48,369 nt of DNA from an uncultured Candidatus Nitrosopelagicus sp. (lineage in GTDB: Archaea > Thermoproteota > Nitrososphaeria > Nitrososphaerales > Nitrosopumilaceae): NCBI GenBank assembly GCA_937896695.1, contig CALBOT010000096.1, forward strand, positions 1 through 48,369, in the 5' to 3' direction. Numbering within the stretch: position 1 is the first letter of the stretch; every line of letters begins with the position of its first letter. The notes below the pieces were generated by a model. It did not search any database and was not told where the DNA came from. It saw only the letters and a list, made by a program, of their open reading frames with translations. The position numbers and the translations under genes are program-made. Shown here piece after piece: positions 19,764 through 47,587 of the stretch.

Positions 19764-19803
19764 GTCTTTTATCGAATTTATACATAATTTAAGTAATAAA
19801 AAG

Positions 19804-19878
19804 CGGGCTCGAAGGGCTTCGATCCCTCGACCTATAGCTTAGGAAGCTACTGCGCTATCCATGCTGCGCCACGAGCCC
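19804..19878 (-). tRNA. tRNA-Arg(CCT)
   Basis: Minus strand GGGCTCG...GTAGC-TT-CCT-AA-GCTAT...GAGGG-ATCGAAG-CCCTT-CGAGCCC-G cloverleaf. Confidence 0.95.
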
Positions 19879-20678: not shown

Positions 20679-20753
20679 GGGCCGGTGGTCTAGTTTGGTT
20701 ATGATACTGCCTCGACACGGCAGTGATCGAGAGTTCAAATCTCTCCCGGCCCA
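20679..20753 (+). tRNA. tRNA-Val(GAC)
   Basis: GGGCCGG...CTGCC-TC-GAC-AC-GGCAG...GAGAG-TTCAAAT-CTCTC-CCGGCCC-A cloverleaf. Confidence 0.97.
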
Positions 20754-20768
20754 CTCTAAATTTTAAAA

Positions 20769-44499: not shown

Positions 44500-44928
44500 T
44501 TGATGGGATTAACTGAGGCCGATGCCAAAGCTCTAGTAAATGAAGGGATTTTGTCTGCAGATTATGATGAACATGAAGAAGCAATAGAATTTTACGACAA
44601 GGCTCTAAAAATTGTAGAAACCTCAGAAACCTATCTGAACAAAGGAATTTCTCTTGTAGAACTAGAAAAATATGAAGATGCTGTAACATGTTATGATAAG
44701 GCAGCAACAATTGATACTAATGATTCTCTAATCTGGTATAACCGCGGTGTTGCACTAACGCAATTAGAAAAATATGATGATGCATTGTCAAGTTATGAAA
44801 AGGCAATTGACGTATCACCTGGTTATGCAGATGCATGGTATAACAAAGCAGAACTTTTGAAACATAAGGGTCAAGATGCAGAAGCAGAAACCTGTTTTGC
44901 TAAAGTTAAGGAATTAGAAGGAGAATAA
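44500..44928 (+). CDS. Tetratricopeptide repeat protein
   Basis: Repeats of WYNRG...YDDAL..YEKAI..P. Confidence 0.92.
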   Translation: MMGLTEADAKALVNEGILSADYDEHEEAIEFYDKALKIVETSETYLNKGISLVELEKYEDAVTCYDKAATIDTNDSLIWYNRGVALTQLEKYDDALSSYEKAIDVSPGYADAWYNKAELLKHKGQDAEAETCFAKVKELEGE

Positions 44929-46098
44929 TTGTCTTCGTCGTTTTATTATAATAGCAGCAATCATACTTACAACAACTCCAATTATTACATATACTATAGT
45001 TAAATTATTTCCAGACTCGTTAGACGTAAACTTTGTAACCTCTTCTAGTGGTGCTTCAGAGATACGAATTATCTTGTCATTGTCTCCATTTGCTGTTAGT
45101 AGATACAATACTCCATCAGGACCAATCTGTGCTGTGCGAATTCTACCAAAGTCACCTTCAAACATTTTTTCTGCACTGATTAAAGAACCATCTTTTGCAA
45201 TATCTAAAACCATCAAATGCTGTCCTCTTAAGGCTCCAACCAAAAACTTGTCTTCAAAACTAGAAATTTTATCTGAATTGTAAAACACCATTCCACTTGG
45301 TGCCCATGTTGTTTGTCCACTATGTGTGATTGGATTTACAAAACTGTCATCAGATGAATCACCTACAACTTTTGGCCAACCATAATTTTTTCCCTTTACA
45401 ATTACATTGATTTCGTCATGACCATAACCCATTTCTCCAGATGGTCCATGCTCTGATGACACAAGCAAACCATCTTCATTCCATGCAATTCCTTGTGGAT
45501 TGCGATGACCATAAGAAAAAATTGCACTTGAATCAAATGGATTGTCATCAGGTATTGTTCCATCTGGATTAATTCTTAAAATTTTTCCTGCCAGTGATGA
45601 CAAATCTTGTGACCATCCAGGATTAACTGCATCTCCTGTTGTTATGTACAGTTTTTCATCAGGACCAAATGCAATTCTCCCACCGTCATGCCATGGCGCA
45701 CCTGGTATGTCATCAATTACTGTCTGCATATCTACCAGTTTGTCTCCGTCAACTGTAAAGCTAAAAACTTTGTTTTGGAAAAATTCCAGTTCTAGATTTG
45801 TCTGATAAATGTAAATTTTCTTGTTCTCTTCAAAATTTGGATGCAAGGCAAGGCCTAACGTTCCTCCCTCATATGATCCGCTCTTTGGGAATGTTTGAAT
45901 TACTTTGGCTTCTCCAAAATTTTCAATTTTCCACACACGTCCGTCTCTTTCTGTAAAGTAAACGTCTCCGTTTGGTGCAAAAACCATTTCCCATGGGTTA
46001 TTCAACCCGTCAACTATTACATCAACATTCATTTCTCCAAATGCTGGAGCAATCAATGAAACAAATGCAATGCAAATCAACAGAACAAAACGTTTCAT
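44914..46098 (-). CDS. PQQ-dependent glucose/sorbosone dehydrogenase family, exported and C-terminally anchored
   Basis: GLNNPW, HDGGRIAFGPD, YGHRNPQG, NYGWP and GRIR. Signal peptide from MKRF at 46098. Confidence 0.92.
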   Translation of the reverse strand: MKRFVLLICIAFVSLIAPAFGEMNVDVIVDGLNNPWEMVFAPNGDVYFTERDGRVWKIENFGEAKVIQTFPKSGSYEGGTLGLALHPNFEENKKIYIYQTNLELEFFQNKVFSFTVDGDKLVDMQTVIDDIPGAPWHDGGRIAFGPDEKLYITTGDAVNPGWSQDLSSLAGKILRINPDGTIPDDNPFDSSAIFSYGHRNPQGIAWNEDGLLVSSEHGPSGEMGYGHDEINVIVKGKNYGWPKVVGDSSDDSFVNPITHSGQTTWAPSGMVFYNSDKISSFEDKFLVGALRGQHLMVLDIAKDGSLISAEKMFEGDFGRIRTAQIGPDGVLYLLTANGDNDKIIRISEAPLEEVTKFTSNESGNNLTIVYVIIGVVVSMIAAIIIKRRRQLFSF

Positions 46099-46159
46099 GA
46101 TTAAAACATGCATTTTTTGCTTAAAATCCTATGCAAATTTATAAAATTTTTCTTGCTTC

Positions 46160-46362
46160 ATAATTCGGCGTTCAAATGAACTTTATCTCATCACTATTTG
46201 AGGAAGTCAGAGAGAACCTCGTCTAATCTATAATCATCAGCAAATAGTACAACATGCATTGACTATTTAGAATCACTCATTTGTAATGAAACCCCGAAAA
46301 GGCAACAAATGTTGCCTCTTCAGGCAGAGAAATTAATCTCCTGTTGGCGTGCAAACCAATAG
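46160..46362 (-). ncRNA. Candidate structured non-coding RNA, family not recognised
   Basis: No sizeable ORF. Serial hairpins pair fully only on the minus strand through G-U pairs; C/D-like boxes in the 3' half; BRE/TATA-like element at ~46396-46383. Confidence 0.6.
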
Positions 46363-46433: not shown

Positions 46434-46727
46434 ATGGTGTATGCTTGGATAATTCCAATTTCATTAGTAGCAATTTTAGGAATATCTGGATATCTTGTAT
46501 ATCGATATGTGATTTTTGACATCTTGGCAAACAGCTCAATCAATAACACCTTGAAACGATACAACATCAAAAAAACACAGTTTGAGATAATCAAAGAGTT
46601 TAACGAATTGAAAGGCGAAACACTATCTGATTCGGAAATTAAACGCTTAGCAAAACATTATCGCCGAAACGAACCTGATCAATTCCTATCAATGTATGAT
46701 CATTTACGAGATAGATCAAAAAATTAA
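46434..46727 (+). CDS. Membrane-anchored hypothetical protein
   Basis: N-terminal TM; YRRNEPDQFLSMYD. Confidence 0.8.
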   Translation: MVYAWIIPISLVAILGISGYLVYRYVIFDILANSSINNTLKRYNIKKTQFEIIKEFNELKGETLSDSEIKRLAKHYRRNEPDQFLSMYDHLRDRSKN

Positions 46728-47587
46728 TCTTCTGTTGGAATATTTATGAAAGGAGTTCCACCTTCGCCAACTACTAGTGGTAGTTTTCCATCCCATGCTT
46801 GTGTCTTTAACCACTCAATGTAGTATGGATTGTTTGCAAGTGCTTCGTTGATGATACGAATGGCTTCTGCCTCACCTTCTGCCTCTGCAATGTTACCCTT
46901 TGCAGTTCCTTGCGCTCTGGCTTCAAACTGTTCTGCTTCTACTTGAATACGTCTCAAGTCATTTTCTGCTTTGAGTGCTTTTTGTTCTGCTTCTACTTTG
47001 GCTTCAATTGCTTGTGCAAAGAGTGGTGAGAATTGAAAGTCTGTAATTGATACAATTTCAGTTGTAATGTTAAAATCATTAAGACGCTCGCCAATTTCTA
47101 CTTCAATGTCTGCTTTTACTTGTGGTCTCTTTGTGATTAATTCTTCAGCGTTATAGTTTGCAGTTACCTGTTTTACAACTTCTTCTACAGTTGGTTGAAT
47201 AACACGATTCTCATAGTCTAAACCAACCTCTTTGTATAGATAGTTAACAGAGTTTGGACTTGGATGATAGTTTACTGTAATTTCAGTTGAGACTGTCTGC
47301 AAGTCTTGTGATGCCGACGTTGTCGACTTTGTATACTTTAAGGTACGAACTTCAAGTGGAATTACTGAATCCTGGAACGGAACTATAAAGTGCAACCCTT
47401 CTTCAAGTGGTGGTTGTGTTACATCTACTGCATTCCAGTGTAGCAAAACGCCTCTGTATCCTGCGTCTACAATTGATACTGCAGAGCCTATTACTACGCC
47501 TATAATGATTAACACAAGAATTCCTATTACCACTCCCTTTGCCTTTCCAACGTTTACTTGGACTGGTCTATTTTGATATTTTGACAA
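46724..47587 (-). CDS. Prohibitin / SPFH (band 7) family protein
   Basis: EGLHFIVPF, SQDLQ, AEELITKR, AIEAKVEAEQ and WDGKLP. Confidence 0.95.
   Translation of the reverse strand: MSKYQNRPVQVNVGKAKGVVIGILVLIIIGVVIGSAVSIVDAGYRGVLLHWNAVDVTQPPLEEGLHFIVPFQDSVIPLEVRTLKYTKSTTSASQDLQTVSTEITVNYHPSPNSVNYLYKEVGLDYENRVIQPTVEEVVKQVTANYNAEELITKRPQVKADIEVEIGERLNDFNITTEIVSITDFQFSPLFAQAIEAKVEAEQKALKAENDLRRIQVEAEQFEARAQGTAKGNIAEAEGEAEAIRIINEALANNPYYIEWLKTQAWDGKLPLVVGEGGTPFINIPTED

What the first reader, a model, noticed from the sequence alone, without database searches (positions are those of the whole stretch)
46158..46240. Box C/D-like module in the 3' half of the candidate RNA with a possibly rRNA-antisense guide
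Seen in sequence (minus strand): cUGAUGA (46240-46234), 23 nt, CUGA (46210-46207), 12 nt, GUGAUGA (46194-46188), then degenerate D-box candidates UUGA, CCGA or AUGA (46175-46158). Established: this C-D'-C'-D order is that of archaeal L7Ae/Nop5/fibrillarin guide RNAs, which are normally only ~50-60 nt and lack a long 5' domain. The segment before CUGA is complementary to AGAGAACCUCGUCUAA, which by recollection resembles the GAGAGAAC-N7-AAGG pattern of 23S rRNA helix 61. Inference: an unusually long C/D RNA with a ~120-nt structured 5' extension, architecturally reminiscent of U3-like or chaperone snoRNAs.
Basis: partly seen in the sequence, partly recalled or inferred. Interest (0 to 1): 0.7.

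Follow-up and report, generated by a model that had tools for sequence, protein, structure and literature searches.

The report
Circular box C/D rRNA methylation guide
This is a stand-alone 90-base archaeal guide RNA of a well-known kind that likely directs a methyl mark onto large-subunit ribosomal RNA; it is not the tail of a long U3-like RNA, though one ocean RNA sample shows it as an apparent closed circle, a form reported almost only from heat-loving archaea.

Summary
All boxes lie at the stated coordinates. The true D box is AUGA (46161-46158), and the unit is conserved across the family. It is an archaeal dual-guide box C/D sRNA, 46241-46152 (minus strand), with its own TATA-like box. 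The genome encodes fibrillarin, Nop5 and L7Ae.

The D guide pairs with 23S rRNA around the E. coli 1672-equivalent C in 26 of 26 relatives with both RNAs (8-12 bp), with one compensatory change. Published guides from four thermophiles appear to target the same site.

The 5' extension is not supported. The upstream hairpins are a separate conserved element with its own TATA-like box, unlinked in most genomes and split off by a 2.3-kb insertion in one close relative.

Unusual points: 23- and 26-nt spacers; a hairpin inserted in the D guide that cuts rRNA pairing to 8 bp; and a head-to-tail 90-nt contig in 1 of 8 marine RNA runs, with no Rnl3-type ligase found in 61 family genomes. A new member of a known class; no Rfam family matches it.

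The parts
46263..46272 (-). TATA-like promoter box of the C/D sRNA (starts 29 nt upstream of G46241); predicted
   Evidence: Positionally fixed YTWWAW in 34 of 46 distinct upstream 60-mers vs 8, 4 and 7 in control windows; kept with the sRNA after the insertion in G211
46152..46241 (-). Box C/D sRNA, 90 nt; ends defined by the head-to-tail RNA contig
   Evidence: Run X1 record 2: 120-nt contig = 46241..46152 plus a 30-nt wrap, depth 1127; loose end equals the unit's own 3' end; conservation
46234..46240 (-). Box C (CUGAUGA), preceded by G; GCU pairs with AGC at 46157-46155 as a 3-bp terminal stem
46211..46233 (-). D' guide/spacer, 23 nt; conserved 3' core, variable 5' part; target unresolved (best in this clade: 9 Watson-Crick bp to the 23S A1286-equivalent)
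46207..46210 (-). Box D' (CUGA)
   Evidence: invariant in 22 of 22
46188..46194 (-). Box C' (GUGAUGA)
   Evidence: UGAYGA conserved
46170..46181 (-). Hairpin inserted in the D guide (lineage-specific; arms change together in relatives)
   Evidence: alignment rows L001-L007, L009, L011, L013, L014 vs L008, L010, L012
46162..46169 (-). D-guide seed, 8 nt, antisense to 23S around the E. coli 1672-equivalent C (D+5 = G46166)
46158..46161 (-). Box D (degenerate, AUGA)
   Evidence: AUGA invariant in 22 of 22; one further homologue has UUGA
46293..46360 (-). Separate upstream structured element (invariant 16-nt hairpin plus variable long hairpin), not part of the C/D RNA

Best explanation
This is a 90-nt archaeal dual-guide box C/D small RNA, likely made from its own promoter, that is predicted to bind L7Ae, Nop5 and fibrillarin and to guide 2'-O-methylation of 23S rRNA, most likely at the cytidine equivalent to E. 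coli position 1672. Steps: (1) transcription from the TATA-like box starts at about G46241 (inferred from position and the RNA contig); (2) C/D and C'/D' form a K-turn and a K-loop that bind L7Ae, then Nop5-fibrillarin (inferred from family knowledge; genes shown present); (3) the D guide pairs with the pre-23S and the nucleotide opposite D+5 is methylated (pairing shown in silico, methylation untested); (4) the D' guide likely marks a second 23S adenosine, with the A1286-equivalent the best candidate in this clade; (5) part of the pool is likely ligated into a circle across the 3-bp terminal stem (one run). The family likely arose by duplication of a ~60-nt sRNA that shares the D guide and both ends but whose D' guide pairs about 10-20 nt downstream on the 23S.
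For: Boxes conserved with variable spacers. Fibrillarin, Nop5 and L7Ae genes in the same genome. The D guide's best site over the rRNA operon is the same C in all groups, with at least 7 pairs in 26 of 26 genomes, range 8-12; it maps to E. coli 1672. The 12-nt form of the guide beats 300 of 300 shuffles. In G116 guide and 23S changed together, A-U to U-A at D+3. Dennis et al. 2015 list RNA-seq-detected sRNAs with nearly the same guide, and predict one shared 23S site (their C1947) in four species (PMC4644070 supplement 1 rows); equating it with this site is my inference from the guide sequence. Rfam sR11 carries a similar guide below threshold (26.9 vs 39 bits). Paralogue with the same D guide and a D' guide pairing 8-10 bp at 23S 1814-1823. 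Own promoter. RNA contig limited to the unit.
Against: The window's genome has no assembled rRNA; targets come from relatives, chiefly G048, whose sRNA differs at one spacer base. In this lineage the inserted hairpin cuts D pairing to 8 bp (7 without D+1), which is no better than shuffled guides (207 of 300). In vitro an 8-bp duplex was not modified at 50-70 C (PMC7229835 section 15). The D' guide's 9-bp match is also within chance (142 of 300), and no site wins in all lineages. The compensatory change is a single event. No methylation or protein-binding data. Four low-depth RNA-run contigs extend upstream past the TATA box (X3, X4, X9, X10), so a read-through precursor is not excluded.
Confidence: 0.8

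Rival explanations
1. It is a C/D sRNA, but in this lineage the D guide no longer methylates 23S: the insert has either disabled it or retargeted it to C49 of tRNA-Val(UAC), leaving the D' guide or an rRNA-folding role as the main job.
For: The insert's 3' arm plus the seed pairs with 12 contiguous bases of this genome's tRNA-Val(UAC) T-arm from D+5 to D+16; 3 of 300 shuffles reach that score. 23S pairing is only 8 bp. No second copy of the D guide was found in G000 or in closed G048.
Against: D+4 is mismatched next to the target. G103 has an insert but its tRNA-Val lacks the match; G199 has the identical tRNA but no insert. The insert's two arms change together, as a self-hairpin would. The 8-nt 23S seed stays intact in 8 of 8 insert-bearing genomes with 23S. 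Several targets were tested, so p~0.01 is weak.
Confidence: 0.12
2. One reading: one long (~210-nt) U3-like RNA in which the upstream hairpins form a 5' domain of the C/D RNA and act in pre-rRNA folding or processing.
For: The two elements are adjacent and co-oriented in the window's sub-clade (most of the 16 full-length hits). Low-depth contigs from three RNA runs span both (X3, X4, X9). The upstream loop is complementary to a conserved 23S segment.
Against: Separate TATA-like boxes. A U-tailed hairpin ends the upstream element. Unlinked in other genomes, 2.6 kb to 1.6 Mb apart in 8 of 8 compared, and split by ~2.3 kb in G211. G116 has the sRNA but no upstream element at the syntenic site. 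The depth-1127 contig stops at 46241. The spanning contigs may be DNA carry-over.
Confidence: 0.05
3. The element is a cis-acting 5' leader (L7Ae-bound K-turn) controlling the downstream glucose/sorbosone dehydrogenase gene rather than a trans-acting guide.
For: It lies ~40 nt upstream of that ORF on the same strand.
Against: Flanking DNA differs between lineages while the unit persists. A second TATA-like run lies between the unit and the ORF. RNA depth is 1127 on the unit vs 17 on the ORF in X1, as separate contigs (contig depth is only a rough measure). The guide covaries with 23S.
Confidence: 0.03

Closest known systems
Archaeal box C/D sRNAs (class); Pyrobaculum and other sets in PMC6009581 and PMC4644070
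   Same: C-D'-C'-D order, two guides, D+5 rule, own promoter, duplication with guide divergence, degenerate boxes, fibrillarin/Nop5/L7Ae in the genome.
   Different: 90 nt vs about 50 nt; spacers of 23 and 26 nt vs about 12 nt; hairpin inside the D guide; marine host.
N. equitans sR21, P. calidifontis sR38, T. tenax sR151/sR51, I. hospitalis sR169 (Dennis et al. 2015) and Rfam sR11 (RF01150)
   Same: Nearly the same 12-nt guide, predicted to hit one shared 23S cytidine; D+5 is the same G.
   Different: Second guides unrelated; the shared guide sits before D in two and before D' in two; no Rfam hit over threshold, so shared target or guide rather than shown orthology.
Circular C/D sRNAs of Pyrococcus, Sulfolobus, Thermococcus (PMC7994747, PMC3326292, PMC9014305)
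   Same: Head-to-tail junction just outside C and D; 3-bp terminal stem, the minimum seen for most circularised sRNAs in T. kodakarensis.
   Different: Seen here in a marine metatranscriptome; no Rnl3-type ligase (TIGR01209) in 0 of 61 family genomes, though the Sulfolobus control genome also lacks that model; no RNase R or RT-PCR check.
Eukaryotic U3/U8-type processing snoRNAs (recalled, no call)
   Same: Only the presence of C/D boxes with structured sequence upstream in the DNA.
   Different: No covalently linked 5' domain; no conserved pre-rRNA antisense in a 5' extension.

Membership tests
Archaeal box C/D sRNA | C, D', C', D boxes in order, conserved in homologues | tested here: met
   D box is degenerate (AUGA)
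Archaeal box C/D sRNA | Guide antisense to rRNA or tRNA with a Watson-Crick pair at D+5 | tested here: met
   D guide: 8-12 bp in 26 of 26 genomes, one compensatory change; only 8 bp in this lineage
Archaeal box C/D sRNA | Second (D') guide with a defined target | tested here: inconclusive
   several GAGAA-type sites score alike; 142 of 300 shuffles equal the best
Archaeal box C/D sRNA | Expressed as a discrete small RNA | tested here: inconclusive
   discrete 90-nt unit at depth 1127 in 1 of 8 runs; contigs only, unstranded
Archaeal box C/D sRNA | Fibrillarin, Nop5 and L7Ae encoded by the host | tested here: met
Archaeal box C/D sRNA | L7Ae binding and 2'-O-methylation at D+5 | not testable with these tools
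   needs EMSA/co-IP and RiboMeth-seq
Rfam sR11 (RF01150) or any Rfam family | Score at or above the gathering threshold | tested here: not met
   window: no snoRNA hit over threshold; paralogue 26.9 vs 39 bits for sR11
U3-like snoRNA with 5' domain | 5' domain in the same transcript and linked in homologues | tested here: not met
Circular C/D sRNA | Head-to-tail junction in RNA, absent from DNA | tested here: inconclusive
   junction in X1 only; 0 copies in the genome or fetched loci; not seen in the 7 other runs, including X2 of the same sample
Circular C/D sRNA | RNase R resistance or divergent RT-PCR | not testable with these tools
   bench test

The most novel reading that the evidence does not exclude
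An abundant, covalently closed C/D guide RNA in an open-ocean archaeon that lacks the only ligase shown to close such circles (Rnl3). This would mean C/D sRNA circularisation is not a heat adaptation and has a second enzymatic route. The RNA also carries eukaryote-length spacers and a hairpin that trims the guide duplex from 12 to 8 bp, possibly a low-temperature tuning of guide release.
Probability: 0.4. Interest if true: 0.6.

Novelty: new member of a known kind. Interest (0 to 1): 0.36.

Why it matters
As an annotation it adds an unlisted, family-wide C/D sRNA, plus a paralogue and a third family, and predicts a ribose methylation shared with hyperthermophiles at a conserved 23S site. If the circle is real, it tests the stated view that circular C/D sRNAs are nearly exclusive to thermophiles and serve heat stability (PMC7994747), and asks which ligase does it. 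The natural series of D guides (12 bp, 10 bp, 8 bp plus hairpin) against a nearly invariant target is a ready test of the minimum guide duplex in vivo.

Tried and rejected
Rfam at gathering and E-value thresholds: no family.

rRNA in the window's own genome: none assembled.

Helix-61 GAGAGAAC target: absent in relatives' 23S.

Other D' candidates (G048 23S numbering 124, 1641, 1742, 1804, 2172, 2415; 16S 3'-terminal hairpin): each fits some lineages, none shows clean covariation. The 16S site has the best mean but leans on G-U pairs and is broken by several variants.

No 11-nt perfect target for either guide elsewhere in the genome. D' vs tRNAs: nothing above 8 pairs.

Hammerhead, glycine-riboswitch and H/ACA readings were considered by eye from recalled consensus features and dropped, since no such Rfam family scored.

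Hits outside the family: the covariance-model hits there are weak (E above 0.006). The one inspected (G358) and the one pattern hit (G256) lack the box set.

The PF09414 hit is the ATP-dependent DNA ligase, not Rnl3. No phage copy.

Runs X2, X12 and others without cover of the unit: no conclusion drawn.

The bacterial promoter scan is not suited to archaea.

The N. maritimus genome paper, which I recall listing a few C/D sRNA candidates, is not held. A relative of this RNA may therefore already be in print. Searches listed no paper describing it.

Earlier scan findings: none returned.

Full report
Setting. The window is contig C96 of a 1.22-Mb, 92%-complete genome. Archaeal genes and marine RNA runs that hold the stretch point to a marine archaeon. 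I infer a Nitrosopumilaceae-type ammonia oxidiser, but no call names it. The feature lies between a glucose/sorbosone dehydrogenase gene (44914-46113, minus) and a 97-aa ORF without a Pfam family (46434-46727, plus).

Observation. The pattern alone is not rare (5 strict hits in the genome), but conservation is decisive. A BLAST search with the intergenic region hit 42 of 201 family genomes. Only 8 of these hits, the window's included, covered nearly the whole region; most other strong hits covered only the box unit. In 22 aligned homologues the boxes, the 5' UGCU and 3' AGC ends, the D' core and the D seed are invariant or nearly so, while spacers vary. AUGA is the D box. A full-unit pattern hits 20 of 301 order genomes, all in this family, with 0 control hits. 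The C'-to-D part is in 28 of 45 genomes of the genus, many incomplete. Fibrillarin and Nop5 are adjacent on contig C6, and L7Ae is on C28.

D guide. The genome lacks assembled rRNA, so I used 28 relatives' 23S genes, 26 of which also had the sRNA fetched. Scanning 23S and most of 16S, the best D+5 site is the same cytidine (G048 1808) in every group by pair count. By energy it leads in all but one three-genome group. It aligns to E. coli 1672. Pairing is 12 bp in 4 genomes, 9-11 in 14, and 8 in the 8 that carry an inserted hairpin, which is the window's type. In G116 both guide and 23S changed at D+3, keeping the pair. The 12-nt guide beats all 300 shuffles; the window's 8-bp match does not (207 of 300). 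For this species the assignment therefore rests on homology.

Published support and caution. Supplement 1 of Dennis et al. 2015 (PMC4644070; passages and supplement rows seen) lists four thermophile sRNAs with nearly this guide and predicts one site, C1947 in their alignment, in four species. Against activity: in a reconstituted system an 8-bp duplex was not modified at 50-70 C, 9-10 bp was optimal, longer duplexes were inhibitory at the lower temperature, and 21-23-nt spacers were tolerated (PMC7229835 sections 15 and 22).

D' guide. In the window's clade the best site gives 9 Watson-Crick pairs, D+2 to D+10, at the A1286-equivalent in 7 of 7 genomes, but it does not covary in other lineages and is within chance (142 of 300). 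Other lineages fit a site near E. coli 2309 or the 16S 3' hairpin about as well. The target is unresolved.

Origin. A covariance model found strong hits in 11 of 151 order genomes, most of them its own training set, and a second tier that is a ~60-nt paralogue. The paralogue has the same ends and D guide, and a D' guide pairing 8-10 bp at 23S 1814-1823 in the 3 copies tested. That is the usual two-nearby-sites layout. Seven genomes carry both. A duplication with D'-guide replacement is the simplest reading; this is inference, and no tree was built. Similar events are described in Pyrobaculum (PMC6009581, passages).

No 5' extension. A TATA-like motif starts 22-34 nt upstream of the C-box stem in 34 of 46 distinct contexts, mostly at -27 to -29, against 8, 4 and 7 in control windows (kin are not independent). 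The upstream hairpins are an element of their own. Their invariant 16-nt hairpin is in 54 of 151 family genomes, up to 6 copies. It has a TATA-like run about 31 nt upstream and is followed in most copies by a long hairpin whose sequence varies while pairing holds (37 distinct copies folded). It lies 2.6 kb to 1.6 Mb from the C/D unit in the 8 other-genus genomes compared. In G211, a close relative, about 2.3 kb with a 481-aa gene sits between the two, and the C/D unit keeps its TATA box.

RNA evidence. I laid 8 of 22 runs, all contigs. In X1 one 120-nt contig at depth 1127 is the 90-nt unit 46241-46152 plus a 30-nt wrap, with no cover on either side. The junction is absent from the genome and all fetched loci, and the flanks share no repeat that would explain template switching. 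Against: X2, from the same sample, has no contig there. X14 has a linear one. X3, X4, X9 and X10 have contigs at depth 3.5-25 that run upstream past the TATA box, from DNA carry-over or read-through. A library artefact is possible (PMC3326292, passages). A review says circular C/D sRNAs are found nearly exclusively in thermophiles (PMC7994747, passages), and in T. kodakarensis the Rnl ligase makes them (PMC9014305, passages). That ligase family was found in 0 of 61 family genomes, while RtcB is present. The Sulfolobus control genome also lacks the model, so this absence is not unique.

Verdict. A genuine, ordinary-class archaeal C/D guide RNA with no Rfam match, a well-supported ancestral 23S target, an unresolved second guide, and no U3-like domain. 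The long spacers, the inserted hairpin and the possible circle are what is worth following up. I could not read the N. maritimus genome paper, where I recall a few C/D sRNA candidates being listed, so a relative may be in print.

Noticed in passing
window 46293-46360 (minus): Separate conserved element: an invariant 16-nt hairpin followed by a variable long hairpin, with its own TATA-like box, in 54 of 151 family genomes, sometimes multicopy, not in Rfam. Its 8-nt loop is the exact complement of a 23S segment conserved in 28 of 28 relatives (11 pairs with flanks), but 42 of 200 shuffles score as well. Likely an undescribed small RNA; possibly the more novel object here.
   Followed up: partly
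L145-L151, L126-L141 (e.g. G013:C1:134226-134291): Paralogous ~60-nt C/D sRNA family with the same D guide and a D' guide pairing just downstream on 23S; the 12-nt D-guide pattern is in 37 of 64 family genomes.
   Followed up: yes
L152-L160 (e.g. G060:C2:51342-51396): A third conserved C/D sRNA family with similar ends and different guides; weak resemblance to Rfam sR41 (25 vs 54 bits). Targets not examined.
   Followed up: no
G000:C94:3408-3483 (L230): tRNA-Val(UAC) T-arm pairs with 12 contiguous bases of the window's D guide including the inserted hairpin arm; not supported by comparison with G103 and G199.
   Followed up: yes
window 46724-47587 (minus): SPFH/band 7 gene; its 3' end is covered by deep RNA contigs (depth 722 in X1, 150 in X2) that run on antisense over the 97-aa ORF.
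   Followed up: no
window 46434-46727 (plus): 97-aa ORF with an N-terminal hydrophobic stretch, no Pfam family, conserved in the genus.
   Followed up: no
L227 (G237:C1:1018964-1022308): 23S gene about 340 nt longer than its relatives, suggesting an intron or insertion.
   Followed up: no
window 19803-19878 and 20679-20754: tRNA-Arg(CCT) and tRNA-Val(GAC) genes.
   Followed up: no
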